Source of the DNA: a virus
Taxonomy: Duplodnaviria > Caudoviricetes
DNA: 41,822 nucleotides
Reading direction: 5' to 3' (one strand)
Virus record (IMG/VR): IMGVR_UViG_3300030098_003679
Span: 1 to 41,822 of that record
Shown piece by piece: positions 1,423-41,325 of the stretch. Numbering within the stretch: position 1 is the stretch's first letter; each line of letters starts with the position of its first letter. The notes beneath the pieces were generated by a model. It saw only the letters and a program-made list of their open reading frames with translations, did not search any database and was not told the DNA's origin. A program made the position numbers and the translations under genes.

Positions 1423-4400
1423 TATCTTTCAACTCCATAAGGAGACCATGGATACCAAGGCCCTTTACCTTTTCTCATTTTCTTAGATTCATTATTTAAT
1501 GATTGTAATGGGAACCCAGCCCATTTATCAACCAACCCCATAGGATTTTCTATTAAATTATTTGGTGCTAGAAAGTCTTTAGCTAACCTTCCAAAAGGAA
1601 ATAGTGTATAAATATGGTAATTTGCAAATCTATCCCATTCTCCAGAATTAAGTGATTTCATGACAGACAAGGGATGTCTCATAATTGGAGGAGTAACTAA
1701 CTGTAAAGGAGCCAATCCTTTAGGCCACATACCAAAGAAAGCTCTATCTCTTTCATTTTCATTTCCAAATAACCAGTCTGCTGTATCTTGAAACCAAGAA
1801 TAAGGAGCTGGCATAGCTGTATCAAATATAGAATAAGCAAAAGCATTACCTAAAGCAAATACTGTTAAATCAGCTTGCATTAACCTTCTAAATCTTTCAT
1901 ATTCTGGAGTACCTGCTCTTAAACCAAATATCTTAGCTTCTCTTGCTATATCATTTCTAAATCTTACAGCATTCCATTGCCATAGTTGGAAACGAGTCAT
2001 TATCTTGCCAAGAGCTGTTCTAGCAAATGCTGGTCTATAAGGAGCATTATATAGGAATTGAGTAGCTTTAACACCTTTCTTTGCTAATTCTATTAAAAAT
2101 GGATGGTCAGGATTCTTTATTGCACCATCAAACATTTCATATGCTCTAGCATAATGAGCCATAAAAGCATCTCTTCTTAGCATTCTCTCAGGAACAGACA
2201 TAAACTTAGAGGCTATATTCATTATACCTTCACTAACATTATGTTTTTTACCTAAATCTCTTAAAGTAGTTTCTGCTAATTCTCCATCATTCCCTATTTT
2301 CTTAGCTATATCCTTAGCAAAATTCTTAACATTAGCAGCTCTCATATCAGGGTCTATACCAAACTGATATAAAATAAACTCAGGAATTACACCGTGTTTA
2401 GTAACAAATGCGTCAATATCATCTTTAGATTTCCATTTAGGATTTATTTTATTAAGATATGAAATATCCCTACCTTTCTTAAAATACTCTAGTCCAGCAC
2501 TTTGTATACTATGAATGCTACCACCAAATATATTACCAACAGAAGCCTTAGGATGAGCAAGTAAAGATGCTAACTCAAATTTAGCTTCTGCATTTGATAT
2601 TTTCTGTAAAGTACTATAATCAATTTCATTCAAATGTTTATCTAATTCAGGATATTCAGATGCTTTCTTACCTAGAATAGTATCTTTCATACCTTGGAGT
2701 TTCTTTTTAACCCTGTTGTCAGCCCACCAATAATAAGGAGTACCTTTTAATTTCATACTAGGGTCATTATATATTCTCTCTGGTATAATAGCTGGATTAC
2801 CCATAGCATCTTGAGCATATAACTTTAAGAAATTCATCCAATTTCTAAGTAAATTACTCTGAACCTTAACACCATCTTCATTTATATAAGTACCAGTTTT
2901 TTCTTTATGCCAACCTAATTCTTCACCTCTCTTTCTAAATTGTTCAATTTTATGTCTAGAAAAAATCTGATTTATTTGATTAAAATATGTATTAGCTATA
3001 TTCCTTAAATAAACTTCATATGTATTCTTGCTTATATCATATCCAGGCATATGATTTGTTCTAGAATGCATACTACCCATCCTTTGATTAGCATTCCACC
3101 ATTTCAATTCATCACCTTTCTTTTTAGAATTTATCTCACCAGCAGCTCTTTCAAATGCATCCCATATTTCAGTTCCAGGCTCAATCCAATCTCCTGATAT
3201 ATTATGACCTTTCATAAGAATTTCTTTTATCTGAGCATCTCTAGCTTCTTCAGTTAGATTTGGGTCTTCTTTTACAGACCTTATAGCAGCCTCCATAGCT
3301 TTTCTAGACTCAGCTTTGCTATGAAACATATGAGGATAGTATCCAGAATAATTTAACTTACCAGTTTTAGTAAGTCTTGTTTTCATTAATTTAGCTCTAG
3401 CTTTATTACCAGCTTTATTTTTAGGGAAAAACTCTAATAGCATAGAACGAGCTATTTGTCTAACACCGTCAATACCTAGGTCTAAAGGAAAATCTTTACC
3501 TTCTCTATATCTAGCTTCTAAATCCTTAACAAATAATCTCCAATTTATTTCAGGCTCTTTTTGCTCGAAGTCAAAAAACTTACCTGTTTTATATCTATCA
3601 AGAGCCTCTGGTTTTCCAACCATCATTTCATGAGCTCTTTTATTCATATTGGTATAAGTCTCTTTAATTTTATCAACAATTTCCCAACCATTCATTTTAA
3701 CTTTAGTACCATCAGGGTTTGTAATATTATAAATTCTTTCTAAAGCAATTTTAGCAGAGCCCTTAGGATTAGCTGTTCTAACTTGATTACTAGAACCTTC
3801 TATAGATTTTATATATTCATCTCTATATGACCTAGCTTGTTGTCTTCTTCTGTCTAGGCTAATATCTTTATTTCTAAAAATACGAGGTATTTCACTAAGT
3901 TCCATTTTCCTGACAGCAATTCTTCTTAATGTTTCTCCGTATTCTGGAACTGCATCTGTATAAAAGCTTAATACAGAATTTAATTCTATATTTAACTTCT
4001 CGCCTAATTCAATAGCCTTTTCTCCAATTCTTCCGTTCCAATCTTGAAGCCCTTCTAATGCCCAACTAGGCTGTCTAACCCATCCTTCTTTCCATTCACC
4101 TGATTTAGTTTTGAAGAATCCTTTCTTCTTAACAAATTCAATATCATATTTCATCATTGATTTACTAACTGTTTTAGGAAACATCATCCAGAATCTCTTT
4201 TTCATATCAGGAGAATCTTCTTTAAACAATCTTTGTTGAAATGTACCTGCTCTCATGTCTTTTAAAAAGTTATTAAATATCTTCCAATCCTGTAAGTCCA
4301 TGACATTCATATCTTTCTTCATAACATCACGAGTAATTTCATTTAGTTTAAGAGTGTGGCCTTTAGAGTAATACTTTAAATTTTCAGCTAATTCAGTAAC

Positions 4401-7400
4401 AATTTTAGTCTGCTCAGGATTTAACTTACCTGCAGTTAAACCTTCATATCCGCTTAAATCTTCTACATAAGAATTTTTAACTAATTCTTTATCAATATTT
4501 TCTGGTTCAAACAATCTAACTTTACCATCTTGACCATCAACCTCTACCTTAACTTCTTCAGCTTTATCAAGAGCTTTTATAGCTTTCTTTATTTCAGACT
4601 CTTTAGCTTTAAATGATTTACCAGCTAATCCCATGTAATCTCTAAGATAGTCTCTAATAGATGTATCGCTTATAGATGTAGATGTATAGCCTAATTTAGT
4701 TAATGAACTTTTAGAGCCTTTCATCATATAGTCATGTTTTATTTTAGGGTCTTTTAGATTAACATTTCCCCTTTTAGCCATTTCATTCCTATTGTAAGAA
4801 CCTAGCATTAAATAATCGTAAAGCTTTTTCTCTGCATTAGTCTCAAGTCCATCTTTAAATTGCTTTATTCTTTTATCTACCTGAACTTGGTCTAACGATG
4901 AAGAACCTTCTGTGAGTTTATAATCTTTTTCTAATAATAATTTATATGCAGCTATTTCTTCAGGTGTATGATGGTCTCTTATAGCGTCTAAATCTCCTAA
5001 TTCCATCCTTTCTTTAGCCATTAAATAACTAGACTTTTTAACATCTTCTACTTCAGTGAAAATTCTTTCGATTGTTTTCATATCTAAAACATCTTTATTC
5101 TTTTCATATAAATCTGCTATTCTCTTCAAACTAACCATTTGATGTATATCGTTAGTTACAAAATCTTGAGCTTTTATCCAGACATCATTTACAATAGCCT
5201 CTCTTTCTTGAACTGAAAAATCTTCCATATCTTTTTTAAATTTCTCAGGAGTATCCTTTTTGTGTCTAGTATAATTTAATCCTTTCATAAAATCAAAAAA
5301 CTCTAGACTATCATTGGCTATATTTCTTCTTTGTCTGTCACTAAAAGCTCTAAAATCTAAAATCTTTTTAACAAATTGGCTTTCAGGTATTGTAAAAGTA
5401 GTTCTACCCATCATTCCTGCTAAAAATTTATAATCTTTAGCCATTTGATTCATATCTACATACAACTGTTCTAACTTACTTTTATCTATTTTATTAAATA
5501 TATTATCAACCCATTTAGGAGACTTATTAATTAATCTAGCTTGTTTAGCCATAATATTAGTTAGCTGAGTATTACTATCAAATTCGTTAATAAACTGCGT
5601 ATTCTCTTTAATTTCGCTCTCTGTCCACATTCTACCAGCTTTATAGTTCTGACCAAATAAAGATGTATTCATTTTCATCACATTTTCTAAAGTACCATTC
5701 TTTAATTTCCATATAGGGTCAAACTTTTTATTAGCAAACTTACTCATAAAGCCATCTAAATCTTTAATCTTAGCATCCACCAATCTATTATTGACGAACT
5801 TTTTAACATTTTTTACTTTGAAGTATGAATCGTAAAGCTCTTTAAAGTAAAATTGATAAGGTTTAATACCACCACTATCCATAGGGTCAGCAGTAAAAGC
5901 AGTCATAGATGATGTAAGCCTTCTAGCATAATCAAGCCATTCTTTTTCTGTTCTAGCTTCAATTTCTACTTGATATGTTTCCCATTTCTTACCTTCTTTA
6001 TTATCAAAATTAAATGTATCTACTTTACCCTTTTTATTAGCTATTAAATCATGAGCAGCTTTCATAGTTTGAGTCATAGATACAACACCACCCATTTGAG
6101 CACGACTATCTACAACATCTTGAGATACTTTTAATCTAGAACTAGGAGCATACATATATATCTGAGATTTTTTAGCCAACTTAGAGAACTCACTAGCTCC
6201 TTCTGTAAGTAAATCTTCCATAGACTGACCTTTATGCTTACCATCAGGTCTATTTACTTGACCAGATTTAGGGTCTGGTATAAATTTATCATAAGCTTCT
6301 TTTTGTTTAGCAGAAAGCTTTTTAAATTCTTCTGGTGTTTTATACTTATATTTACCACCAATTTTCTTCTTAGTCACATACTGAACGTACTCTTCTTTAT
6401 TGGCTTCAAATACATCTTTCCAAGTCTTCTTCATCCCCTCACCAACACCAGCAGCATTCTTTCCACCAAAATACACAAATGCTTCATCAGCATCTAAATC
6501 AGCACCACCTAATGCTCTCATACTTCTTGGATGTAATAAAATACCATGGCCATTTCTACCAGTAAATCCTCTGAACTTTAATGCGTGTGCTCCCGATATA
6601 GAATCCATAGGAACTCTTATAGCCATAGCTCTAAATATTTCCTCAACTTCTTTTTCTAGTCCTTTAAAGTTTTTACTATAATCAACTTTACCCTTGTCAT
6701 TGACAGATGCTTCCCATAACTTTCCTAATGTAGTTTTCTTAAACTTTCCAGGAAGATGTGTTATTATAGGCATATCATAGTATTTATTATCTAAAAAGAA
6801 TATATCATCTCTAGTATTAAGTTCTTTTAAATAAGGATTTGACTTATCTAAATCCATCATCATTGCTTTGTCATATGGCCTCATTCTAGCAGCAGCTGAA
6901 TTACCTATTTTAGGTTTAGCAATTTGATTCATTATATAACTTCTCATTACTTTTAACCTATAAGGTCTAATCCATTTATGAGTATATATTGCAGCAGCTT
7001 TTATATCTGCTTGTTTAGCTACTTTATTAGCTTGATTTAATATTCTATCAGTCATAGTGTTAAAATCTTCTAATTCTTGAATATACTCATTAAGTTCAGT
7101 TTCTTTATGACCGTTTTCTCTAGCTTCTTCATAAGCAGCTTCTTTATTAATCTTTAATAGCTTTCTAAAAGCAGCATCAGAGAATTCCGTACCCTCATTA
7201 GTATTAGCTGCTTCTAGTAATTCATTAACACCTATCTTGTCTATATTCTTTATAAGTTTATTTAAGCCTTCTTTTGTTGGATTTTTCCTATAATTAGCTA
7301 GGGCATCATTCCATTTAGTTTCACCTTGGTATGACTTAGCTATAGTCTCATTAAATATATCAGTTATTACTTCATTATCTATAGGTTTGTAAGCAACTTT

Positions 7401-10400
7401 AGAATTTAAATTACTAAACCACTGCTTAGGTATCCTATGATTATGCTTCCACATATTATCATGCTGTTTAACAGAATAACTATATTTAATATGAGAAGGG
7501 TCTAATGTATATTTATCAGCGTTTAATGAAAATTTACCTCTAGGAGATATATCGTAAGTACCTACGTTTCTTTTACCTAATTGTTTAGTAGAGGATTCAT
7601 ATATTAAATAATGCAATCCTTCTTTTTTCATAGCTTCTGATAACTTTTTACCAGCATCATGAAACATAAATTTACCATACATTCCACCTAATTCTCCATC
7701 AGGGGATAGAATAAATGCTTTATTTTGACCAGACTCTGGCTGACCAGCATCTTTATTATTAAATTTAACTACATCATCTCTAGCTATTATAGCTCCATCA
7801 GTCTTTTCTAAGAAACTATCAGCATATGCTTTAAATAACTTTTCATCATGTTCTTTTAATTTTTCTATATCTTTTACTACCGAATATCTAAAACCACCAT
7901 GCTTCTTAAATACCTTGTCTTTAGCAAACTCTACTTTAGCAAATTCCTTACTACCTGCCCAAGCAGGAGTAAGCATAATCTGTAAACGCTTATTATAATC
8001 TAGAGTATTACTTATAAAGCCTGTAATATCTTTAGGTCCCCACATTTTCTTTAAATTAGCTGGGGTTAAATCATAACCTTGCATCCCCATATCATATAGT
8101 ATATTAGATATAAAAGCATCATCGAACATCTTTCTAGATTCAGCTTTTGTTAGATTAGGAAATTGCTCTCTAAAGAGAGTTAAGGCTTTCTTGTAATTAG
8201 CTTTTCTATTACCCTTAGGTCCTATTAGCCTGTTTAAAGTAGGACCAAGCTTATTAGACTTTGTTTTAGGATGGTATTTAACAAAGAACAACTTATCTGC
8301 ATCACCTCTGCCACCAAAAAGATACATACCAACATTCTTTTTATTCATGTTTTTAACAAGCTTCTGAATAGTAGCATCATAAACCTCTGGACTTGCTTTC
8401 CTTAGGTCAGATAACTTATAATCCTTCCAATGACCAGAACTGTTTTTCATGCTTATATGGTCCACAGTAGTCATATTGCCATATTTAGTATCTATCTCAC
8501 CACCACTTTCTTTTAAATAGATTTCCTCTAGAACCTTCATTGGCTCTTGAGAATCCTTTTTATTACCAGCTTTAGTCATATTTTCAGCCATAGGCTCAAT
8601 TCTAAAATACTCTTTACCTTTCTTGCCTACAGAGTACATAAGACGCATATGAGGCTGTTTTTGGCCATTATTAGCGATGTTTAGCCATTGTCTTAACTCA
8701 CCCCTTGCTTCAGCAGAAAGTGGCGCTCCTAGCTCTTTTTGAAGCTCATTAGCCATTTTCTCTGTATTCGGCTCTTTTCCTGGCTCTATATTTTTAATTA
8801 ACTGTTTGTCTACTTTTGCTGATATTAAAGTTCTTAAATCATTTTTAGTGACCATATCAACTTCGGGTAGTTCAAATAAATCCTTTAGCCATTTATCTGC
8901 AAATTGTTGTGCTCTATTACCTACTCTTATATCGCTAACAATCTCACCTGGGTCTGAAGCATTATCTTGATTTTCCCCTACTTTAGAGACAATATCTTCA
9001 GGCTTAATACCTAGTTCTAACTGCTCTTTTAATTCTGTTTTCTTAACTATTTCATTGGATAATTCACCTATCTTTTCAGATGTATATAAATACATAGCTG
9101 ATTTTTTACCAGTATCTTTAAATATCTTATTTTCTACATCAAATGCTTCTTGTAGGCTCTTAATCTTTTCAGCTGATTTATCTATATCTTCTTGAACTTT
9201 AAATATCTTTTTAACAATTCTTTCTTGAGCTGGCTCTACTAAAGGCTCCTCAGCTAGATAATTAGCATGTTCTTGACTTATTTCGCCAGTCTTCATTATT
9301 TCACGAGCTTTTTCCCAAGACTCTTTAGTTATATTGCCATACTTATCTTGAAGCCCTAATTGCTTTATAATCTCATGCCCCATAAAGCCACCAACATTGT
9401 TAGGATAAAGCTTATCTATTTCTTTATATACTTGCTCTTTTATTTCAGGGTCAAGTTTATCCCACTTTTCACCCATAAGTTTAGGGTCTTTTTTGATGTC
9501 CATCTCAGCATTCTTAACGCTTTTAGCACCAAAGTCTTTCATAAATTTCATTGCACCTGCTTTCTGCCAAGGAACCTCATTTAACCCAAAGAATCCACCT
9601 AATAAATACTCGTATACTTTCTCTGGTGTAGTAGCACCTCTAGCTTCTGCTGATAATCCTTGAAATAAAGAACCAGCTAATCCTCTAGTTAATTTAGTAG
9701 CTTTAGGGTCTCCTAGTTTTATAGCATTACCCAGTGTTCTAAATACACCACCAGCTAGAGCTCCATGAAATGTTCCTTCTAGCATAGCATTTACACCACC
9801 TTGCCATGAAGATAGCCCACTAGCTACACCTAAGTCGAATGCACCTTCGGCTACATGCCTAGCTGCACCTTTATTTAGAAAGCTAGCAACAGTATTTACA
9901 GCACCAGCTTTTCCTTCAGCTGCTTTCTTAATCATAGGAGAACTTATCTTCTCTACTCTTTTCCTTATAGCTTGAGCTCCTAACATAGGTATTGATTTAA
10001 TACCAGACATCTTTTGAGCCCAACCAGCCATTCCTGCCATTCCAGCCATTCTTGCTAATCTTCCTACAGGAGCTGCTACCATACCTGGAGCAAATCCTAT
10101 TAAATGACCTACGCTTCTAGCTATAGCTTCGTATTCATTATCAGGAGCAGACCCTACATTAAAGGTGGTAAAGCCAGAAAACATCCCTTTAGCGAGTTGC
10201 ATAATAGCTTCGCTTGGATTAAATTCTCCAGTATAAAAGGGTATATTGTGATAGTTAGCGTGTTCTTCTAATTTTTTTTGTAAGCTTTTAGGGAGGCTTC
10301 CACGAAACTCACTCGCTCTTTTTATAAGAGCACGAGTTTGTTCAGCCCCATAGATAGGTTGAAATTGCCCAGATTGTTGAGGCTGTTGAACCTGTTGAGG

Positions 10401-10433
10401 AGAACGTAGTTGTGTTCTCGGAATATATACCAT
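1422..10433 (-). CDS. Giant virion/ejection protein containing a single-chain two-barrel RNA polymerase (putative virion RNAP, 3003 aa)
   Basis: Motifs in the order seen in QDE-1/cellular RdRP-like polymerases: TDGAII (about 7794-7802), GKFMFH, YESSTK (about 7584-7598), RVPMDS (about 6609-6617), LGGADLDADEAFVY (DLDAD at 6486-6500, aa about 1312-1316). Gly/Ala-rich N-terminus typical of ejection proteins. Located after the tail genes. Confidence 0.8.
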   Translation of the reverse strand: MVYIPRTQLRSPQQVQQPQQSGQFQPIYGAEQTRALIKRASEFRGSLPKSLQKKLEEHANYHNIPFYTGEFNPSEAIMQLAKGMFSGFTTFNVGSAPDNEYEAIARSVGHLIGFAPGMVAAPVGRLARMAGMAGMAGWAQKMSGIKSIPMLGAQAIRKRVEKISSPMIKKAAEGKAGAVNTVASFLNKGAARHVAEGAFDLGVASGLSSWQGGVNAMLEGTFHGALAGGVFRTLGNAIKLGDPKATKLTRGLAGSLFQGLSAEARGATTPEKVYEYLLGGFFGLNEVPWQKAGAMKFMKDFGAKSVKNAEMDIKKDPKLMGEKWDKLDPEIKEQVYKEIDKLYPNNVGGFMGHEIIKQLGLQDKYGNITKESWEKAREIMKTGEISQEHANYLAEEPLVEPAQERIVKKIFKVQEDIDKSAEKIKSLQEAFDVENKIFKDTGKKSAMYLYTSEKIGELSNEIVKKTELKEQLELGIKPEDIVSKVGENQDNASDPGEIVSDIRVGNRAQQFADKWLKDLFELPEVDMVTKNDLRTLISAKVDKQLIKNIEPGKEPNTEKMANELQKELGAPLSAEARGELRQWLNIANNGQKQPHMRLMYSVGKKGKEYFRIEPMAENMTKAGNKKDSQEPMKVLEEIYLKESGGEIDTKYGNMTTVDHISMKNSSGHWKDYKLSDLRKASPEVYDATIQKLVKNMNKKNVGMYLFGGRGDADKLFFVKYHPKTKSNKLGPTLNRLIGPKGNRKANYKKALTLFREQFPNLTKAESRKMFDDAFISNILYDMGMQGYDLTPANLKKMWGPKDITGFISNTLDYNKRLQIMLTPAWAGSKEFAKVEFAKDKVFKKHGGFRYSVVKDIEKLKEHDEKLFKAYADSFLEKTDGAIIARDDVVKFNNKDAGQPESGQNKAFILSPDGELGGMYGKFMFHDAGKKLSEAMKKEGLHYLIYESSTKQLGKRNVGTYDISPRGKFSLNADKYTLDPSHIKYSYSVKQHDNMWKHNHRIPKQWFSNLNSKVAYKPIDNEVITDIFNETIAKSYQGETKWNDALANYRKNPTKEGLNKLIKNIDKIGVNELLEAANTNEGTEFSDAAFRKLLKINKEAAYEEARENGHKETELNEYIQELEDFNTMTDRILNQANKVAKQADIKAAAIYTHKWIRPYRLKVMRSYIMNQIAKPKIGNSAAARMRPYDKAMMMDLDKSNPYLKELNTRDDIFFLDNKYYDMPIITHLPGKFKKTTLGKLWEASVNDKGKVDYSKNFKGLEKEVEEIFRAMAIRVPMDSISGAHALKFRGFTGRNGHGILLHPRSMRALGGADLDADEAFVYFGGKNAAGVGEGMKKTWKDVFEANKEEYVQYVTKKKIGGKYKYKTPEEFKKLSAKQKEAYDKFIPDPKSGQVNRPDGKHKGQSMEDLLTEGASEFSKLAKKSQIYMYAPSSRLKVSQDVVDSRAQMGGVVSMTQTMKAAHDLIANKKGKVDTFNFDNKEGKKWETYQVEIEARTEKEWLDYARRLTSSMTAFTADPMDSGGIKPYQFYFKELYDSYFKVKNVKKFVNNRLVDAKIKDLDGFMSKFANKKFDPIWKLKNGTLENVMKMNTSLFGQNYKAGRMWTESEIKENTQFINEFDSNTQLTNIMAKQARLINKSPKWVDNIFNKIDKSKLEQLYVDMNQMAKDYKFLAGMMGRTTFTIPESQFVKKILDFRAFSDRQRRNIANDSLEFFDFMKGLNYTRHKKDTPEKFKKDMEDFSVQEREAIVNDVWIKAQDFVTNDIHQMVSLKRIADLYEKNKDVLDMKTIERIFTEVEDVKKSSYLMAKERMELGDLDAIRDHHTPEEIAAYKLLLEKDYKLTEGSSSLDQVQVDKRIKQFKDGLETNAEKKLYDYLMLGSYNRNEMAKRGNVNLKDPKIKHDYMMKGSKSSLTKLGYTSTSISDTSIRDYLRDYMGLAGKSFKAKESEIKKAIKALDKAEEVKVEVDGQDGKVRLFEPENIDKELVKNSYVEDLSGYEGLTAGKLNPEQTKIVTELAENLKYYSKGHTLKLNEITRDVMKKDMNVMDLQDWKIFNNFLKDMRAGTFQQRLFKEDSPDMKKRFWMMFPKTVSKSMMKYDIEFVKKKGFFKTKSGEWKEGWVRQPSWALEGLQDWNGRIGEKAIELGEKLNIELNSVLSFYTDAVPEYGETLRRIAVRKMELSEIPRIFRNKDISLDRRRQQARSYRDEYIKSIEGSSNQVRTANPKGSAKIALERIYNITNPDGTKVKMNGWEIVDKIKETYTNMNKRAHEMMVGKPEALDRYKTGKFFDFEQKEPEINWRLFVKDLEARYREGKDFPLDLGIDGVRQIARSMLLEFFPKNKAGNKARAKLMKTRLTKTGKLNYSGYYPHMFHSKAESRKAMEAAIRSVKEDPNLTEEARDAQIKEILMKGHNISGDWIEPGTEIWDAFERAAGEINSKKKGDELKWWNANQRMGSMHSRTNHMPGYDISKNTYEVYLRNIANTYFNQINQIFSRHKIEQFRKRGEELGWHKEKTGTYINEDGVKVQSNLLRNWMNFLKLYAQDAMGNPAIIPERIYNDPSMKLKGTPYYWWADNRVKKKLQGMKDTILGKKASEYPELDKHLNEIDYSTLQKISNAEAKFELASLLAHPKASVGNIFGGSIHSIQSAGLEYFKKGRDISYLNKINPKWKSKDDIDAFVTKHGVIPEFILYQFGIDPDMRAANVKNFAKDIAKKIGNDGELAETTLRDLGKKHNVSEGIMNIASKFMSVPERMLRRDAFMAHYARAYEMFDGAIKNPDHPFLIELAKKGVKATQFLYNAPYRPAFARTALGKIMTRFQLWQWNAVRFRNDIAREAKIFGLRAGTPEYERFRRLMQADLTVFALGNAFAYSIFDTAMPAPYSWFQDTADWLFGNENERDRAFFGMWPKGLAPLQLVTPPIMRHPLSVMKSLNSGEWDRFANYHIYTLFPFGRLAKDFLAPNNLIENPMGLVDKWAGFPLQSLNNESKKMRKGKGPWYPWSPYGVER

Positions 10434-30465: not shown

Positions 30466-30466
30466 G

Positions 30467-30826
30467 CTATCCTAAATATAGAAATGCAGAACCACTATCT
30501 AAAGCAACTGTTTTCCATCTACCATATATAGTTACACCAGCTGGTAAAGTAGTGCCGCCTATTGCATCGTCATTTGTTGAAGGGCCTGCTTGAGCTCTAG
30601 TAGACCAATTAGAATCTGCAGTTGTACCTGAACTATCTAAAACAGCATCTTCTATAATTTGTATAGCTACTACAACCATGCCATCTGGAGGTGTAACTGT
30701 AGCTGTTGTTCCACTAGCAATAAATGATACTCCATTACCGCCTAAGTCTACACCTTTTGCGGCTGGTCCTGTTTCACTTCTTGTTTGCGTTGTTCCCGCA
30801 TGTGTTATTGTTAAATTACTACTCAT
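30467..30826 (-). CDS. Small virion structural (possible capsid decoration/fibre base) protein (119 aa)
   Basis: C-terminal TLPAGVTIYGRWKTVALDSGSAFLY beta-rich module. Located right after the capsid genes. Confidence 0.55.
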   Translation of the reverse strand: MSSNLTITHAGTTQTRSETGPAAKGVDLGGNGVSFIASGTTATVTPPDGMVVVAIQIIEDAVLDSSGTTADSNWSTRAQAGPSTNDDAIGGTTLPAGVTIYGRWKTVALDSGSAFLYLG

Positions 30827-31462: not shown

Positions 31463-32848
31463 TTAAGAAAACTTAAGAACTGCGTGGGTTTCAGGCAAAC
31501 TAATTTCAAGACCAGCTTCGGTCAGAACCATGTCTGAACGGCCATCAACACCATTGTCTTGAACGTTAGTTTCAATAAAGGTATCTCGACTAATACCATT
31601 ACCCACTAGTGGTCTGTATGCTACATTCTTCATATCAACAGCTACGCAATAATCTTCCCAAGGTCCTCTTAATAGAGGTTCAGCTACAAAATGCAAATTA
31701 CCAAATATAGTATTTACAACTGTTACTGTGTGCCCAAAAGCACCAGGAATACTAGTAACGTCTAGTCGATATTGAGATGAGCCAACAGAATTGTTCATAA
31801 AAGAGCCATTACCTAGTTTATTTAAATAAGTAATAACTTTTCTAGAAGCAAGAACTAGCTTATTTCCTGAGTTTCCACTTTCAGGTGCAAAGAAATCCTC
31901 CATTGCATCTAAGAAAGCATCATACCCAGAAGAAGCATAAGACATATTATATACCTTACCATTAGTATTAGTATAAGGCAAAATACCCCAAGTAGTTCTA
32001 TATGGAGCATTTGTTGTTGATGTCTCATTAGATGAAGAGCCAACTCCAAATAAGAATGCTTGCTCTATATCCATTTTGTGCTCCATAAGTTTATCTTGCC
32101 AGATTCTTTGGAACTCATTCTTAATACCTCTATATTCTGTAGCAAGAGAAGTACCAGAAAAGATATTCATACCAGTTTTAAATATCTGAGTATATCCTTC
32201 ACTGTCGTACATTTTGTCTTCCCAACCTACAGGACTATCAGTACCCTCAGCCCATGCAGAGCCAATCACTTGACCTTTATTACCAATTGCAAAGCTTTCG
32301 CCTGAGCCAATATCCTCTAAAGGAATTAATGCTTTACCATTAATTTGAGTAATTCCTGTAGTATTAGCATCATGATTGATATACTTACCATCAGTCAATG
32401 TATTTTCTCTTTCTACTACTGCAGCGTGGTCAACTTTAAATTTAAAAACTGTACCACTATCTGCTTTTACAGCCACTACAACACCAGGAACAATAAATTC
32501 GCAATGATTGTCACTGCTGCTTATTTTTCCATAAGTATCATATCTAGCTGTTATATGTAAATCCTCTCCGTTCGCTAATGCTGTTCCAGCAGTCTCTGCT
32601 CCTGGATTAAATGTCGCATTTGCTACTTCAAAGTTTCTTCTTTGCCATTGATGACGTTGTTCTAAAAACTTAAACACAGGGTCGTTGGTCGCCTTTTTTG
32701 CAACTTTTGATAGATATACAAAAAATGGAGACTGTTGAGGAGCGAGTTCTGCAACTCTATCCCCAAAGTTAAATACTCTCCGTGTATCGTCAATAGAAAT
32801 ACCACCTGGCGTTGTGGCTCCAAAGCCACCACTGTATACGTTTGCCAT
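31463..32848 (-). CDS. Major capsid protein (HK97 fold, SU10-MCP/DUF5309-like, 461 aa)
   Basis: Follows the scaffold gene. SPFFVYLSK...NDPVFKFLE, GSAWAEG, YTQIFKT...EHKMDIEQAFLFG, and C-terminal LTEAGLEISLPETHA. Confidence 0.85.
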   Translation of the reverse strand: MANVYSGGFGATTPGGISIDDTRRVFNFGDRVAELAPQQSPFFVYLSKVAKKATNDPVFKFLEQRHQWQRRNFEVANATFNPGAETAGTALANGEDLHITARYDTYGKISSSDNHCEFIVPGVVVAVKADSGTVFKFKVDHAAVVERENTLTDGKYINHDANTTGITQINGKALIPLEDIGSGESFAIGNKGQVIGSAWAEGTDSPVGWEDKMYDSEGYTQIFKTGMNIFSGTSLATEYRGIKNEFQRIWQDKLMEHKMDIEQAFLFGVGSSSNETSTTNAPYRTTWGILPYTNTNGKVYNMSYASSGYDAFLDAMEDFFAPESGNSGNKLVLASRKVITYLNKLGNGSFMNNSVGSSQYRLDVTSIPGAFGHTVTVVNTIFGNLHFVAEPLLRGPWEDYCVAVDMKNVAYRPLVGNGISRDTFIETNVQDNGVDGRSDMVLTEAGLEISLPETHAVLKFS

Positions 32849-36108: not shown

Positions 36109-36136
36109 AATATACACTACATTGTCATCCAATCAA
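36109..36136 (-). promoter_or_regulatory. Putative late promoter TTGATT-N16-TATATT upstream of the portal gene
   Basis: Same TTG...TATATT spacing as the other three copies. Overlaps the TerL stop. Confidence 0.5.
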
Positions 36137-37610
36137 AGACTTTTTTTGTTAAACTTTTTTCTTTAGCTTCACCATCATATTCTTTTAGTCTACAAGGCTT
36201 GTGTCCATCGAGTGCAGTCCATACTGCATCCATGACATCATCATGCTTCCCTTTAGGATAAGATAAGAACTCTTGTTGAGGCTCTATATCTTGTGGTCTA
36301 AAGTAAAATTGCTTCTTTGCAAACAAAGGAACTAGTGACATAAGTCTTTCACTTTTTGAGTTTCTTGGTTTCACACCTGTTTCTAGTCCAGGTATGTATA
36401 AATTTTCTTCTCTCATTAAATCTCTTACAGCAACTCTTAATGCTTCTTGATATCCAACAGTCTCTACTTTCATTCTTCTAGGTCTATACTTTTTATAAGC
36501 ATCTATCAATATTTTTGGTTGCTCAGCAGGTGATATACGGTTTCTATAAACGTCGATAATATACTTATTGTTGTCATGGTCAACACCAATAGTAGCCACA
36601 ACGAAAAAGTCAGCCCTAGCAGAAAGAGAACTGGCAGGGTCAACACCGCAGTAGACATCCACTGGTATAATCTTCTTTTCATCTCCAACCTCTCTTACTA
36701 GACAATTCTGCCCATTTATTCTTTCATAATCATAATGATGTAATTGAATCCACTCTGGTTTAAATGGTGCATTATCAGGAGATTGAGCAATGTTCATATA
36801 CTCCTGATAAAAACCATTTAGATTACCAACAGATTCAAACTCTTTCTTTATTCCAAGAATCCTGCTCTTGGGAAATCTTTCGGGCCATATACTCTTTTCC
36901 TCGTCATTCCATATAGAATACCATAGTACTTTCCATGTTTCCGACTCTTTAGCCCAATATAGAAAACAATCTTCCGATATAACAGTTCCAATCATACATA
37001 TCTTCCCATCATCTGATAGTGAAGGTATAACCGCTTCTGTCATCCATTTTCTATTCTTAGCTCTAGCTTCTGGGGTAAATGCATTTAATTCTGATTCAAA
37101 GTCATCCACTACAATAAGATTAGGACGAGTATCACCTTCAATAAAACCCCTAACTCTTTGTCCAGTACCTACCGCTATTATTCTTGTTCCATTAGCAAGT
37201 ACTACATCTGTATGGGTCCACCTACTTGCTGTATTCGGCCCCATATCTCCAAAGGTCTTTCTAAAATTGTCACTATGGGTTAAATGATATTTAATTCTAG
37301 ATAAGAAGTTTATAGACTGGGCCTGTGATTCTGATATGATAACTATAAATAAATCTTCATCACTTCTTTTAAACGCCAATCTCCATAGAGGATAAATCAG
37401 AGTGGTGACAGTGCTCTTAGCCGTTCCCCTAGGGGCAGCTATCAACACTCTTTTTTCGTCGTCGTCAGCTAAGGCAGAATACACCTCATGATGGAACGGG
37501 GGTGTTTGTTTGCGGAGGGCAGTCGGGAAGCAGTACCTTCCGAACAACGCCATATTGTTCCGCAGTTTCTGTAACGCACGTAATTCTTCGTGCCGAGCTT
37601 CGTAATCCAT
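36117..37610 (-). CDS. terL: Terminase large subunit (497 aa)
   Basis: Walker A APRGTAKST, Walker B LIVVDDFE, MIGT coupling motif, FYQEYMN, and nuclease motifs GVDPA and HDDVMDA. Confidence 0.95.
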   Translation of the reverse strand: MDYEARHEELRALQKLRNNMALFGRYCFPTALRKQTPPFHHEVYSALADDDEKRVLIAAPRGTAKSTVTTLIYPLWRLAFKRSDEDLFIVIISESQAQSINFLSRIKYHLTHSDNFRKTFGDMGPNTASRWTHTDVVLANGTRIIAVGTGQRVRGFIEGDTRPNLIVVDDFESELNAFTPEARAKNRKWMTEAVIPSLSDDGKICMIGTVISEDCFLYWAKESETWKVLWYSIWNDEEKSIWPERFPKSRILGIKKEFESVGNLNGFYQEYMNIAQSPDNAPFKPEWIQLHHYDYERINGQNCLVREVGDEKKIIPVDVYCGVDPASSLSARADFFVVATIGVDHDNNKYIIDVYRNRISPAEQPKILIDAYKKYRPRRMKVETVGYQEALRVAVRDLMREENLYIPGLETGVKPRNSKSERLMSLVPLFAKKQFYFRPQDIEPQQEFLSYPKGKHDDVMDAVWTALDGHKPCRLKEYDGEAKEKSLTKKVFDWMTM

Positions 37611-38368
37611 TATTCTTCTTCTTTTATAGTAGTCCTTGTCGCAAGAAGTTTATTCTCTTCCTCTCTAAGCTCATCTATAAGTTTAGTAGTAGAAGTAGCT
37701 TCTAATGTATCCGTAGTCTTTACAAGATGCTTGTCTTTCATACCATGCATATCTTGCAAGTTCTCTATAGCTCTCATTAGGTTAGTGACATCTTTCTTGT
37801 CTCTAGCCATCCCTATTGTTCTTTCTAATAATTCAAGAGTATAATTCTCTGTCATTCCATGGTCTGACAATAATTTACTTAATTCTTCTCTTACCATACC
37901 TTTAAATACCTCCGTTCTCATGTAGCGTTTAACTCTTCTATTCTCGTTAGATGTTACCTCGCCACATACTTTTGCTATAGTCTCCTCAGTATTCATAGTC
38001 TGAGCATACACCATAGCTAGATTCTGCATTTTCTTTTGTTTTGCCTTAACTTCAATTGGTCTTTTTCCGCTCATAGTAGTGTTAGACTTCCTTCCTTTAA
38101 CTTTTAGCTCTCTTCCTCTATATCTAGGGTTATAGAAAGTATATCCCCAGGCAAACCTGAGGTAGACATTATCGATTCTATTATTTGATTTATACGATTT
38201 TTTTGTAATAACTTTCGATACGAAACCATCGTCAGATAATGCCCATTGTCCTTCTCCTGCATCTCTCCAATGATTATATTCAAGTCCTTCTTTATCGGCT
38301 TCTTCTTGTGTATAGATTTCATAGGTCTTAGCTCCTATGTCTTTGTGTTTAATTGTAATAGTATACAT
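37610..38368 (-). CDS. Putative terminase small subunit (252 aa)
   Basis: TAATG-coupled directly upstream of TerL. Helical C-terminal oligomerisation-like region. The call is mostly positional. Confidence 0.55.
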   Translation of the reverse strand: MYTITIKHKDIGAKTYEIYTQEEADKEGLEYNHWRDAGEGQWALSDDGFVSKVITKKSYKSNNRIDNVYLRFAWGYTFYNPRYRGRELKVKGRKSNTTMSGKRPIEVKAKQKKMQNLAMVYAQTMNTEETIAKVCGEVTSNENRRVKRYMRTEVFKGMVREELSKLLSDHGMTENYTLELLERTIGMARDKKDVTNLMRAIENLQDMHGMKDKHLVKTTDTLEATSTTKLIDELREEENKLLATRTTIKEEE

Positions 38369-39187: not shown

Positions 39188-39622
39188 TTAGTACCCTTCA
39201 GGGGCTTCGAAATTGCCACCCATATTAAAATACTCAGAACCACCTGTAGTGCCATAATTCCCTCCTTCATACATATTGTCCTCTACTGAAGGAACATTAA
39301 ACCTTCTCTCAGGCATGTTCATACCAAAAGCTAGCAATCCTCCAGCAGGTTCTACACTCTCTCCTTCGTAGTACCCAGGATACTCTTCTTCTGGTAAAAA
39401 GCTAGAGAAATAATTAGCAATATTAGGCATATCCTCGTCACTTAGGTTAGCAAACATAGGATTGCCCCTACTTAGCATGAAGTCTACCATACTAGGTGAC
39501 TCCCTTACTTCATTCTGTTTAAGGAAGTTGCTCATAGCTCTTCCATAAGCTCTTTCTTTCCCATAGTTCCTACCTTCTGAATACATATCATAAGGCATGT
39601 CTGTTGCATCAAAGTTTGCCAT
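39188..39622 (-). CDS. Hypothetical acidic protein (144 aa)
   Basis: AAGGAG SD. M/E/G/Y-rich. No family recognised. Confidence 0.65.
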   Translation of the reverse strand: MANFDATDMPYDMYSEGRNYGKERAYGRAMSNFLKQNEVRESPSMVDFMLSRGNPMFANLSDEDMPNIANYFSSFLPEEEYPGYYEGESVEPAGGLLAFGMNMPERRFNVPSVEDNMYEGGNYGTTGGSEYFNMGGNFEAPEGY

Positions 39623-39719
39623 TCTTTCTCCTTGCTTTCTTAGCTCTTTTATAGGCCTTTACGGCTTGATTTGCTTTCTTCTTAGCTTGTTTACGATGTT
39701 TTGCTTTTTTATTCGGCAT
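39609..39719 (-). CDS. Very small basic protein, first gene of the late arm (36 aa, MPNKKAKHRKQAKKKANQAVKAYKRAKKARRKNGKL), absent from the ORF track
   Basis: ATG at 39719, 7 nt downstream of the TATATT box (probably leaderless). Its 3' end carries the SD of the next gene and overlaps its start. Confidence 0.65.
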   Translation of the reverse strand: MPNKKAKHRKQAKKKANQAVKAYKRAKKARRKNGKL

Positions 39720-39726
39720 TTGGGCA

Positions 39727-39754
39727 AATATACAACAAATAAACGGTTTTCCAA
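39727..39754 (-). promoter_or_regulatory. Putative main late promoter TTGGAA-N16-TATATT
   Basis: Identical hexamers to the 13471-13499 element, at the head of the late arm. Confidence 0.65.
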
Positions 39755-39849
39755 AATTTTTTTTAAAAAATATTTTTAAGGTCGAAGTGTACTAAGTTGC
39801 TAACCTAGGTAATGTTTTATTTATTTAGGTTGTCAATAAGTGTTATCCT

Positions 39850-39894
39850 GGTGTATACACCTAGTTATAACTAGGAATATAATCAAATATTTGA
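39850..39894. repeat. Cluster of perfect palindromes
   Basis: GGTGTATACACC (39850-39861), CCTAGTTATAACTAGG (39860-39875), TCAAATATTTGA (39883-39894). Confidence 0.85.
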
Positions 39895-39903
39895 GAAAAA
39901 CAA
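39876..39903 (-). promoter_or_regulatory. Putative second leftward promoter TTGTTT-N16-TATATT
   Basis: Same spacing as the other copies. The spacer contains a 12-bp palindrome. Confidence 0.45.
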
Positions 39904-39950
39904 GCACTTTCTGAAAATTGTAACGAGAATGGGTACGCTAGATATACAAT

Positions 39951-40084
39951 GTTGGGTACCGCCTGGTTTTACGGGCCTAGCCCCTTGGGCTAGGTTGAAT
40001 TCCATTCAAGTGAACCTTGCAGGTTCGCCCGTACACCAGTCGCTGAACCCAACCTTGCCCCTTCTAGTCTTGCAAAGCAAGACT
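39951..40084. other. GC-rich cloverleaf (four-way junction) with three triloop hairpins, plus a fourth triloop hairpin
   Basis: Closing stems GTTGGGT/ACCCAAC, CTGGT/ACCAG, TACGGGC/GCCCGTA. Arms CCTAGCCC-CTT-GGGCTAGG, TTGAAT-TCC-ATTCAA, GAACCT-TGC-AGGTTC. Then AGTCTTGC-AAA-GCAAGACT. Confidence 0.85.
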
Positions 40085-40124
40085 TCATTCTTTAATCACA
40101 TAAAAATAAAAGGAGTAATCAATT

Positions 40125-40445
40125 ATGAAGAAGCTAATTAATTATTTATTTTCATTTGCTACATCAAACAAAGGAGTAGCAGATGTAAAGAATTCACCTA
40201 GACACGGTTTCTATGGCGTAAACTTTAGAAACCTAGATTGGGTACAAGTCAAATCCAATCTGTCTACCATTGAGAGTATGCTACCAGAGAACTGGACAGC
40301 TAAACTATCAATGGCTGGGGATACCTACAAGGACAGAGGTATTGAGAAGACAGTTCAAACCTCTTTCCTCTGGATATCTAAGGACTTGCGAGAAGACCAG
40401 ACTGCAGAGTCTGTTCTCGCAGATATCCCAGATGACCTTGGTTAG
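40125..40445 (+). CDS. Hypothetical protein, first gene of the plus-strand (early) arm (106 aa)
   Basis: AAAGGAG SD upstream and a terminator-like hairpin downstream. Acidic C-terminal tail. Confidence 0.8.
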   Translation: MKKLINYLFSFATSNKGVADVKNSPRHGFYGVNFRNLDWVQVKSNLSTIESMLPENWTAKLSMAGDTYKDRGIEKTVQTSFLWISKDLREDQTAESVLADIPDDLG

Positions 40446-40458
40446 GTATCTGTCATTC

Positions 40459-40490
40459 GGAAGTTGGGAGCTTAATTGCTCCTGACTTCC
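40459..40490 (+). terminator. Stem-loop after the first early gene (terminator or processing site)
   Basis: GGAAGUUGGGAGC-UUAAUU-GCUCCUGACUUCC, 13 bp with two G-U pairs that form only on the + strand. The U-tract is weak. Confidence 0.65.
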
Positions 40491-40576
40491 TCATTTAGAG
40501 TATAGAGGTAATTAACAGGTGTATATCTCTTTTATTATATATAATCATACACATACAGTTAGTGTGTGTAACAGTT

Positions 40577-40741
40577 TAAATAACCTAGTTAGTAGTAGTG
40601 CAGATGACGTGGAAAGGCGACCAAACAGAGAGTTTCAAGACTCATTGATAAGACCTTAGGGATTATCCATAATAGGAGCTAAACAGCCTATAATATGCAA
40701 CCAAACATCAACTATAACTTGCAATCTAGCTAGGTTATTTA
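40577..40741 (+). ncRNA. Candidate structured non-coding RNA
   Basis: 16-bp closing helix TAAATAACCTAGTTAG/CTAGCTAGGTTATTTA (one U-G) enclosing about 130 nt with internal hairpins. No credible ORF. Confidence 0.45.
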
Positions 40742-40946
40742 TAAGTAAATTAGTAATAAATAATGCGGTGGTAAAATAGGATAGTATCAGTATAGAATGA
40801 ATCTGACTATATGATGTCATATAGAAACAAAATAAAGTAACCACCATAGTCGACTCGTAGTGTAGAGGTTTCCTATTATCCTCTGCACTATTAAAACAAT
40901 TAATAATTAAATAATGCTGTAATTAACAGCAAAGGAAGGTTCCAAG

Positions 40947-41251: not shown

Positions 41252-41325
41252 TATTAAAGAGAGAGATGTAATTCCGATGGCAATGCTAGGGGTATTCTCT
41301 CTCTTTATAACATTGGAGGTAATTA

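What the first reader, a model, noticed from the sequence alone, without database searches (positions are those of the whole stretch)
39951..40084. Cloverleaf of triloop hairpins directly upstream of the first early gene: candidate multi-hairpin DNA promoter for the virion RNAP
Seen: a GC-rich island in an AT-rich genome folds into a four-way junction. Three nested closing stems (39951-39976 with 40027-40053) enclose three nearly abutting perfect hairpins (39976-39994, 39995-40009, 40012-40026). A fourth hairpin (40066-40084) lies 40 nt before the ATG at 40125. All four loops are exactly 3 nt and the core stems are pure Watson-Crick, so both strands can fold. On the minus strand, which is the template for the early genes, the arm loops read GCA, GGA and AAG. 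Known: GNA triloops form unusually stable DNA mini-hairpins, and N4 virion RNAP promoters are template-strand hairpins with 3-nt GNA-type loops. Inference: this is an extrudable branched DNA structure recognised by the injected two-barrel RNAP, which would be convergent with the unrelated N4 system. Alternatives are a packaging/terminus signal, a replication origin or an ncRNA.
Basis: partly seen in the sequence, partly recalled or inferred. Interest (0 to 1): 0.88.

Follow-up and report, generated by a model that had tools for sequence, protein, structure and literature searches.

The report
Phage packaging signal shared with islands
The hairpin cloverleaf is real but is not kept in related phages; it overlaps a 100-base DNA signal found in more than a hundred related marine phage sequences and at the edge of mobile islands in Marinimicrobia bacteria, which is likely the phage's DNA-packaging site and which those islands would use to travel between cells in phage heads.

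Summary
The four triloop hairpins exist (z -9), but 0 of 102 relatives keep the cloverleaf. It is single-copy and sits upstream of terS/terL in a family of marine podoviruses whose 3,000-aa protein folds like crAss phi14:2 gp66.

The same element occurs in chromosomes of the phylum of a Neomarinimicrobiota MAG (17 of 151 genomes; controls 1 and 0 of 151). Of 40 copies, 17 lie near a tRNA 3' end, all in one orientation. Carriers include an 8.5-kb PICI-like satellite, where a weak copy (E 0.007) sits beside the satellite's own TerS homologue, and a 1.3-kb integrase-less cassette.

Best reading (0.62): it is the terminase-recognised packaging signal, borrowed by host islands. Contig depth of about 2x and clustered contig ends hint at a nearby genome end. 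No binding or cutting is shown.

The parts
39904..40003 (+). Conserved fixed-spacing linear motif (candidate packaging/terminus signal): A-tract 39914-39917, AGAATG 39926-39931, GATATAC 39941-39947, C-rich box ~39957-39963, GTTGAA 39994-39999
   Evidence: HMM hit 39903-40003, E 2.6e-11, the only hit in the window; AGAATG-to-GTTGA distance 67-69 bp in 109 of 113 aligned copies; alignment A1
39951..40053 (.).
   Evidence: not conserved
40066..40084 (.). Fourth hairpin; also scored as a terminator-like site on the + strand
39727..39754 (-). Leftward sigma70-like promoter match (TTGGAA-16-TATATT) ahead of the late operon; similar sites seen by eye in relatives
   Evidence: consensus match only; 8 sites found vs 10.6 expected by chance, so weak on its own
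37610..38368 (-). Terminase small subunit (252 aa, helix-turn-helix), the predicted reader of the motif
   Evidence: model pLDDT 80; top VIA hits E217 TerS Z 7.1 (rmsd 10.4, 106 aligned) and SF6 G1P DNA-binding domain Z 5.6 (rmsd 2.5, 55 aligned); 14 of 65 homologues weakly match Pfam Terminase_2; Atlas lead
36117..37610 (-). Terminase large subunit
   Evidence: phrog_38 E 2e-89; PF17289
33852..36095 (-). P22-like portal
   Evidence: PF16510 E 9e-70
31463..32848 (-). SU10-type major capsid protein
   Evidence: PF17236 E 1e-34
1422..10433 (-). 3,003-aa two-barrel RNA polymerase of the crAss gp66/QDE-1 kind; virion packaging inferred from its place in the late operon
   Evidence: GGADLDAD at residues 1309-1316; model of residues 850-1600, pLDDT 89.5; Foldseek 6VR4 E 8.7e-7; 158 homologues
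40125..40445 (+). First rightward (presumed early) ORF, 106 aa, no family hit
   Evidence: similar-sized first ORFs in relatives
39600..40930 (.). Approximate zone of ~2x contig depth: candidate terminal repeat or terminal redundancy that contains the motif; edges uncertain by several hundred bases
   Evidence: three of four runs; contig-mean depths only

Best explanation
The cloverleaf is a genome-specific fold at the right edge of a conserved 100-bp double-stranded DNA element that is likely the packaging (pac/terminus) signal predicted to be read by the phage's small terminase, and that tRNA-anchored islands of Marinimicrobia carry as copies which would get them packaged into this lytic phage's heads. 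Shown: one copy per phage at the late/early switch upstream of terS; fixed spacing and no consensus pairing; copies just inside the attL arm repeats of host elements that use different tRNAs and different arm repeats; one satellite with its own primase and its own TerS homologue directly beside the motif; one 1.3-kb element made only of att, motif, one cargo gene and att. Inferred: TerS binds and bends or wraps the element; the first cut falls some hundreds of bases to its right and packaging runs leftward through the late genes, so early genes enter the next cell first. In the host, the same geometry would start packaging at or beyond the tRNA and run into the island, either from the excised circle or in place on the chromosome. 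The variable hairpins right of the motif, including this cloverleaf, likely act when that strand is single-stranded (terminal-repeat duplication, priming, or first transcription by the virion polymerase).
For: Conservation: 33 of 80 loci found by terL alone carry the motif, including all 17 listed with 6 kb or more upstream. 109 of 120 IMG/VR pattern loci pass the HMM (61 were its training set), and 65 of the first 80 have terS/terL within 3 kb on the same side, down to ~35% TerL identity. One significant copy in each of two full-size genomes. No tyrosine integrase in 5 of 5 full-size genomes. Host copies: 17 of 151 genomes of the phylum and 15 of 38 of the family, vs 1 weak partial hit in 151 SAR86-order genomes and 0 of 151 Flavobacteriales-order genomes. 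Of 40 distinct copies, 17 have a tRNA within 500 bp on the GTTGAA side, all 17 with the 3' end facing (120-479 bp; six tRNA species). G500 satellite (L548): 44-bp tRNA-Thr direct repeats, integrase, CHC2/Toprim primase, TerS (Pfam Terminase_2 above cut-off; E 9e-17 to this phage family's TerS profile), motif E 0.007 between attL and terS, no TerL or polymerase hit. G008 island: 44-bp tRNA-Pro repeats, integrase, two motif copies. L534 mini-element. TerS-TerL-portal contigs of this phage family are binned in two genomes of the same phylum. About 2x depth over the site in 3 of 4 runs. 17 of 51 IMG/VR contigs of 10 kb or more end 300-1,500 bp right of the anchor vs 3.2 expected. Precedent: PICIs either encode a TerS or carry the helper's pac/cos (PMC6092414, passages).
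Against: No binding, cutting or transduction is shown. The TerS-beside-motif satellite is a single case with a diverged, weak motif (E 0.007 in 55 kb); TerS homologues were found in only 3 of 401 genomes. Depth figures are contig means and could reflect a second strain sharing the stretch, or GC bias. Contig-end clustering is weak in the metagenome set (14 vs 8.4 at 300-600 bp, p 0.03; no single end position); the region is also hypervariable between strains, and IMG/VR favours contigs that hold terminase genes. 23 of 40 host copies have no tRNA within 500 bp on the expected side, and 2 have one on the other side. One divergent family contig (L549) has no detectable motif at its strand switch. 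Every full-size phage checked that has the motif also has, or may have, the polymerase (3 of 5 records matched), so phage data alone cannot separate packaging from promoter. In 11 of 35 host copies the cargo ATG lies 24-28 nt from the anchor, which also fits a promoter role in those hosts.
Confidence: 0.62

Rival explanations
1. The linear motif, alone or with the variable template-strand hairpins to its right, is the promoter of the injected two-barrel polymerase. Host islands would carry it because transcription from it is needed for packaging or priming, as T7 polymerase helps recruit terminase.
For: Single copy upstream of the first rightward gene. C(GN[N]A)G mini-hairpins are enriched only on the template strand (56 vs 4 within -22..+250; 46 of 149 loci vs 4.1 shuffled). 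65 of 102 relatives fold unusually well there. phi14:2 gp66 transcribes single-stranded or denatured DNA and its early transcripts share no motif (10.1101/2020.03.07.982082, passages). The role of T7 polymerase in terminase recruitment is stated in PMC4281155 (passages).
Against: In hosts the rightward side leads into arm repeats and a convergent tRNA end, with no gene to express. The satellite pairs the motif with TerS, not with a polymerase. Mini-hairpins vary in position (31-292 bp from the anchor), and are missing from 103 of 149 loci and from this window. About 85 bp of fixed spacing is long for a promoter (general knowledge). This role can coexist with packaging.
Confidence: 0.15
2. The element is the phage replication origin: an initiator or primase-helicase loading site flanked by single-strand priming hairpins. 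Host cassettes carry it to be amplified by the infecting phage.
For: Mini-hairpins of this type occur at G4 and RSF1010 ssiA priming sites (PMC13037366, passages). The phages encode a primase-helicase. Integrase-less 1.3-kb cassettes have no replication gene. T7 phagemids need ori plus pac (PMC13236587, passages).
Against: The G500 satellite encodes its own primase yet keeps the motif, next to terS rather than next to the primase gene. Host copies mostly lack the mini-hairpins (4 of 40). No iterons or AT-rich unwinding element are conserved.
Confidence: 0.12
3. The element is a site for a host factor: a recombination or accessory site, or a leftward promoter/activator site. It builds integron-like cassette arrays at tRNAs, and the phage uses it for circularisation or late transcription.
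For: Tandem same-orientation copies separate cargo genes (L346, L349, L529, L531, L538). The cargo ATG lies 24-28 nt left of the anchor in 11 of 35 copies, with a TAnnnT box 5-7 nt before it. The anchor read on the minus strand is CAnnnT, like a -10 box.
Against: There is no inverted core typical of tyrosine-recombinase sites and no attC-like palindrome. Each element has its own separate arm repeats between motif and tRNA. The distance to the first leftward ORF in phages varies from 33 to ~700 bp, with no fixed promoter register. Truncated copies do not share one breakpoint.
Confidence: 0.08
4. The cloverleaf itself is the functional unit: an extruded four-way DNA junction read by the virion polymerase, or a structured ncRNA.
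For: Very stable fold in this genome.
Against: 0 of 102 relatives have three or more triloop hairpins, and 8 of 102 have any three-branch multiloop. No Rfam hit. No plus/minus asymmetry in RNA folding. Loops lack C-G closing pairs.
Confidence: 0.03

Closest known systems
Helper pac/cos sites carried by PICIs (EcCICFT073 cos1/cos2; cos-type SaPIs) and TerS-encoding SaPIs
   Same: A tRNA- or att-integrated element with integrase and primase that carries a helper-like packaging sequence and, in L548, a TerS homologue (PMC6092414, passages).
   Different: The helper is an integrase-less podovirus with a crAss-type polymerase. The shared site is ~100 bp, with fixed spacing and no recognisable cosN. 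Most carriers are cargo cassettes with no phage gene, some without an integrase, in tandem arrays. Nothing is tested experimentally.
Tycheposons, VEIMEs and PICMIs (marine tRNA- or fis-integrated elements moved in virions)
   Same: tRNA-anchored islands, tandem integration with partial tRNA copies, cargo types and PICI-like types with terS (10.1101/2020.12.28.424599, 10.1101/2022.07.26.501625, PMC10803314; passages).
   Different: The passages read name no DNA packaging motif shared with a helper; the PICMI authors state they could not identify cos or pac. Marinimicrobia occurs 0 times in the main text of the VEIME and tycheposon preprints. Here both the motif and the candidate helper family are identified.
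N4 virion RNA polymerase hairpin promoters P1-P3
   Same: Near the presumed left end, upstream of early genes; template-strand GNA mini-hairpins are enriched in the family.
   Different: N4 has three promoters with conserved -17..+1 sequence and a T7-like enzyme (PMC4496689, passages). Here the enzyme is two-barrel, the hairpins are neither sequence- nor position-conserved, and the conserved part is unpaired.
T7/T3 concatemer-junction packaging signal and phiEco32/SU10 terminal repeats
   Same: Podovirus junction between late and early genes; hairpin near the repeat; DNA carrying the junction is packaged in trans (PMC13236587, PMC4281155; passages).
   Different: No sequence likeness was tested or seen. 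This phage has a helix-turn-helix TerS and divergent gene blocks, and its repeat, if real, is ~1 kb rather than 160-193 bp (the T7 length is recalled).
crAss-like phage phi14:2 gp66
   Same: Fold of the polymerase core; late-module location; host sigma70-like late promoters.
   Different: Catalytic motif GADLD[G/A]D rather than DFDID; ~52-kb genome with SU10 capsid and P22 portal; phi14:2 early transcripts had no common motif.

Membership tests
N4-type hairpin promoter | Hairpin with conserved stem and loop bases at a fixed place | tested here: not met
   0 of 102 relatives keep the cloverleaf; mini-hairpin positions scatter over 31-292 bp; 0 consensus pairs
N4-type hairpin promoter | Template-strand GNA loop in a GC(GNA)GC-type mini-hairpin | tested here: not met
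   Window loops are T(GGA)A and T(GCA)A; no C-G-closed one in the window. Present in 46 of 149 relatives.
N4-type hairpin promoter | Cognate T7-like single-subunit polymerase | tested here: not met
   Core folds like gp66/QDE-1
N4-type hairpin promoter | Transcription start just downstream, dependent on supercoiling and SSB | not testable with these tools
   No RNA run held the stretch
Phage packaging site (pac / terminal-repeat signal) | Single copy per genome, close to the terminase genes | tested here: met
Phage packaging site (pac / terminal-repeat signal) | Shared with satellites that use or mimic the terminase | tested here: met
   L548: motif E 0.007 beside a TerS homologue; one case. 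Other host elements carry the motif without TerS.
Phage packaging site (pac / terminal-repeat signal) | Physical DNA end at or near the site | tested here: inconclusive
   ~2x contig depth in 3 of 4 runs; contig ends cluster to the right in IMG/VR but weakly in metagenomes; no raw reads
Phage packaging site (pac / terminal-repeat signal) | Bound by TerS, cut by TerL, sufficient to make other DNA transducible | not testable with these tools
   needs biochemistry or a cultured host
PICI (for the G500 element L548) | Flanking att direct repeats and a tyrosine integrase | tested here: met
   44-bp tRNA-Thr repeat; PF00589
PICI (for the G500 element L548) | Primase/replication module and terS or helper pac/cos; no virion structural genes | tested here: met
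   CHC2 + Toprim + DUF3987, Terminase_2; no TerL hit, and no hit to the fetched phage loci other than TerS; 3 of 7 ORFs remain unannotated
PICI (for the G500 element L548) | AlpA/Stl-type regulator | tested here: inconclusive
   No Pfam hit among the 7 ORFs scanned; short ORFs were not scanned
PICI (for the G500 element L548) | Excision, replication and packaging induced by a helper phage | not testable with these tools
   uncultured host
Structured non-coding RNA | Rfam match or conserved pairing with covariation | tested here: not met

The most novel reading that the evidence does not exclude
Marinimicrobia build their tRNA-anchored flexible islands from minimal att-pac-cargo cassettes that encode no phage gene and ride a lytic, virion-polymerase phage family. 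The pac copy is kept 120-280 bp from the tRNA so that terminase cuts on the core-genome side and packages ~50 kb of island straight from the chromosome (prophage-free lateral transduction), with the motif itself serving as the recombination anchor. The same site may also be the first defined loading site of a crAss-type polymerase, coupling transcription to packaging.
Probability: 0.25. Interest if true: 0.9.

Novelty: new variant of a known kind. Interest (0 to 1): 0.72.

Why it matters
Helper/hitchhiker pairs in the ocean are largely unmatched because packaging motifs are small, degenerate or unknown (PMC11389934, passages). This gives a concrete 100-bp motif that links an abundant uncultured phage family (about 420 stored IMG/VR stretches match the pattern, ~90% of those checked being true copies) to a likely host phylum. 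It also links that family to a PICI-like satellite and to gene-free cassettes that carry transporters, adhesins and glycosidases. If it is the pac site, it offers a mechanism for island turnover in a streamlined, uncultured marine lineage, a marker for host prediction, and a defined substrate for both TerS and a crAss-type polymerase, whose promoter logic is unresolved.

Tried and rejected
Rfam: no match. Cultured-phage collection: no DNA match to the region, no match to the polymerase core, and TerL only ≤28.5% among the top 30 rows. Sequence searches of PDB with the polymerase found nothing; only the fold search did. Foldseek with the TerS model gave no match at E ≤ 0.001. No RNA holder was listed, which says nothing on expression. 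A wider depth baseline was not obtained, so the 2x zone rests on one call. Two contigs beginning 108 bp left of the anchor looked like a terminus, but one was only a clipped locus. Metagenome contig ends gave no sharp terminus. Plus- versus minus-strand RNA folding showed no asymmetry. No fixed-register leftward sigma70 promoter was found. attC, dif and IHF consensus were compared by eye from recalled consensus and did not fit; no tool test. The 390-aa ORF of the G008 island has 8 homologues, no family and no Atlas hit. A search for relatives of the satellite TerS in IMG/VR gave one marginal 18-residue match. Dropped rows: 11 of 120 viral and 115 of 120 genome pattern matches failed the HMM and were treated as chance; L370 lies inside an ORF and is probably chance. 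Three look-ups of earlier scan findings returned nothing. Literature searches for this motif or phage: 1 unrelated paper; listing of 15, none on this motif by title or abstract; 0; 0. Supplements of the VEIME and tycheposon preprints could not be seen and may list such elements.

Full report
1. Observation. The hairpins, loops and closing stems are as described. The fold is far beyond chance: z -9.0, the most stable of 1,042 windows, and 0 of 20,000 shuffles gave four triloop hairpins. Only two loops are GNA on the minus strand, and both are closed by T-A. The stable DNA mini-hairpins are GCGNAGC/GCGNNAGC, and N4 uses GCGGAGC (PMC13037366, passages).

2. The phage. Portal, TerL and an SU10-type capsid gene identify a podovirus. 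The 3,003-aa protein has an invariant GGADLDxD motif, 158 homologues of about 3,000 aa, and a predicted core (pLDDT 89.5) whose best structural match is phi14:2 gp66, followed by QDE-1. The 252-aa gene before terL is a small terminase: its top fold hits are E217 TerS and the SF6 G1P DNA-binding domain (Z 7.1 and 5.6, middling scores), with a weak Pfam Terminase_2 match in 14 of 65 homologues. Full-size relatives are 51-54 kb, and 0 of 5 encode a tyrosine integrase. No cultured relative was found.

3. The cloverleaf is not conserved. In the homologous 160 nt of 102 viral relatives, none has three or more perfect triloop hairpins, 3 have two, and 80 have none. Eight have a three-branch multiloop, but 65 fold better than chance (z ≤ -3) in differing ways.

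What aligns, almost without gaps, is a linear element: TTTTnAAAAAT-n5-AGAATG-nGTGTGnGn-GATATAC-n5-CC-n3-CCCC...GGG...CGTTGAAA. The AGAATG-to-GTTGA distance is 67-69 bp in 109 of 113 copies (most were selected by a pattern allowing a wider range). RNAalifold predicts no pair. The element covers 39904-40003, once in the window.

It was first seen in loci fetched by terL alone: 33 of 80 carry it, including all 17 listed with 6 kb or more upstream; the ten others in the list end inside late genes. Pattern scans gave 120 IMG/VR loci (109 true; 65 of the first 80 with terS/terL within 3 kb on the A-tract side, some at only ~35% TerL identity) and 120 metagenome loci, mostly phage.

4. The same element in bacterial chromosomes. 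A scan of GTDB contigs returned 120 listed matches, of which 5 passed the HMM. One is a phage contig binned in an archaeal MAG. Four are chromosomal: two titled Candidatus Neomarinimicrobiota and two 'uncultured bacterium' whose genomes fall in the family of one of them. The GTDB name Marinisomatota is recalled.

A sequence-only model then hit 17 of 151 genomes of that phylum (two supplied training copies, and one hit is probably chance) and 15 of 38 of the family. Controls gave 1 weak partial hit in 151 SAR86-order genomes and 0 of 151 Flavobacteriales-order genomes. Of 40 distinct copies, 17 have a tRNA within 500 bp on the GTTGAA side, all with the 3' end facing; 2 have one on the other side; the rest are internal array copies, follow protein-gene ends, or are near contig ends. 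Between motif and tRNA lie short direct repeats that differ between elements and recur at the far end, as integrase arm sites do.

Three architectures were seen. (a) G008: 44-bp tRNA-Pro repeats enclose 9.7 kb with motif, RND efflux cargo, a second motif, small ORFs and an integrase. (b) L534: about 1.3 kb of att, motif, one HupE/UreJ-like gene and att, with no integrase. (c) G500 (L548): 8.5 kb between 44-bp tRNA-Thr repeats, with integrase, methylase, a CHC2-Toprim primase and a TerS homologous to this phage family's (E 9e-17; Pfam above cut-off). A diverged motif (E 0.007) lies between attL and terS in the same order as in the phage, and there is no TerL or polymerase. Tandem arrays of motif-cargo units also occur. 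TerS-TerL-portal contigs of the phage family are binned in two genomes of the phylum, one with a partial motif at its strand switch and one without. Binning is not proof of host, but with the motif's distribution it makes this phylum the likely host.

5. Is it near the genome end? In three of four runs, contigs over the site have about twice the depth of flanking contigs: X3 58.9 vs 29.8-33.1; X2 74.5 and 94.2 vs 43.1-49.5; X6 13.5 vs 5.9-9.3. X10 is a divergent strain with no left flank. These are contig means, and a second strain or GC bias could contribute. Among IMG/VR contigs of 10 kb or more, 17 of 51 end 300-1,500 bp right of the anchor (3.2 expected), but the metagenome set shows only a weak excess and no single end, and strains differ at about 40560-40750. 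This is a hint, not a mapped terminus.

6. In 149 dereplicated phage loci, C(GNA)G/C(GNNA)G hairpins with stems of 4 or more number 56 on the minus strand and 4 on the plus strand within -22..+250 of the anchor. 46 loci have one within -22..+300 (shuffles: mean 4.1, max 10), and the excess vanishes beyond +600. Related loci are not fully independent. The positions scatter, this window has none, and host copies have 4 of 40. The template strand there is therefore probably single-stranded at times. That fits gp66-like transcription of single-stranded DNA, priming sites or terminal-repeat duplication, but it is not the part shared with hosts.

7. Mechanism. Elements that use different integrases and tRNAs, and minimal ones with no mobility gene, keep one helper-like sequence; a satellite with its own primase keeps it beside its own TerS. 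The simplest shared need is packaging, as in PICIs that carry a TerS or the helper's pac/cos (PMC6092414). I infer that TerS reads the phased boxes, that the first cut is some hundreds of bases to the right, and that packaging runs leftward. In the host this would take in the tRNA, attL and the island. Odds: packaging signal 0.62, polymerase promoter (possibly coupled to packaging) 0.15, origin 0.12, host-factor site 0.08, cloverleaf as such 0.03. None of the steps of binding, cutting or transfer is shown.

8. Literature seen. Passages only (term searches) of 10.1101/2020.03.07.982082, 10.1101/2022.07.26.501625, PMC10803314, 10.1101/2020.12.28.424599, PMC11389934, PMC4496689, PMC13236587, PMC4281155, PMC13037366 and PMC6092414; abstract and passages of PMC12595487; other papers as search listings only; no supplements. 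Searches found no report of this motif, phage family or satellite. The library lacks most subscription papers, and the preprints' supplements were not seen.

9. Verdict. The finding as worded (cloverleaf promoter) is not supported, but it flagged the right place. The real feature is a new variant of a known kind (a helper packaging site shared with satellites), unusual in its lytic virion-polymerase helper, its gene-free cassettes and its uncultured host. Interest 0.72.

Noticed in passing
L548:2700-11302 (G500:C4): Complete PICI-like satellite at tRNA-Thr with integrase, N6/N4 methylase, CHC2-Toprim-DUF3987 primase and a TerS related to this phage family's.
   Followed up: partly
L549, L550, L551 (G614, G013): Divergent members of the phage family (TerL ~30-34%) binned in genomes of the Neomarinimicrobiota phylum; L550 has a partial motif at its strand switch, L549 none detected.
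   Followed up: partly
L346:5319, L350:8973, L512, L514, L517 and others: In one host family the left end of the motif reads, on the other strand, TAnnnT 5-7 nt before the cargo ATG with no Shine-Dalgarno: a possible leaderless promoter evolved inside the motif (11 of 35 copies).
   Followed up: partly
L347:15114-16286: 390-aa island ORF with only 8 homologues, one labelled Marinimicrobia; no Pfam, PHROG or Atlas hit.
   Followed up: partly
window 40535-40750 vs L001: Hypervariable non-coding stretch bounded by a 16-bp inverted repeat (40577-40592 / 40726-40741); the strain L001 differs inside it. Further GC-rich hairpins at about 40280-40500.
   Followed up: no
window 41255-41307: Perfect 12-bp inverted repeat (TAAAGAGAGAGA / TCTCTCTCTTTA) around a 29-nt core at which many unrelated contigs attach.
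   Followed up: no
L075, L392, L419, L494, L502, 145-196 bp left of the anchor (also L200, 98 bp): Recurrent [T]ACTAC[GTA]GTAGT[A] hairpin in a TAC/GTA-repeat tract on the late side of the motif.
   Followed up: no
L388 (G001 27166-30799) and L100: Early region of the distant clade encodes a ThiF/E1-like protein (read from its GxGxxG motif), a neighbouring possible JAB-type protein and a small ubiquitin-like ORF; labels from sequence appearance and recall, PHROGs gave only unknown-function families.
   Followed up: no
L420: Metagenome contig with the motif between small HTH-like ORFs and arm-like repeats (GGGGATA): probably another satellite end.
   Followed up: partly
L350:9077-10513: Cargo gene of the serine beta-lactamase/PBP fold family directly left of a motif copy in a marine Marinimicrobia island; probably a peptidase or esterase (inference), untested.
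   Followed up: no
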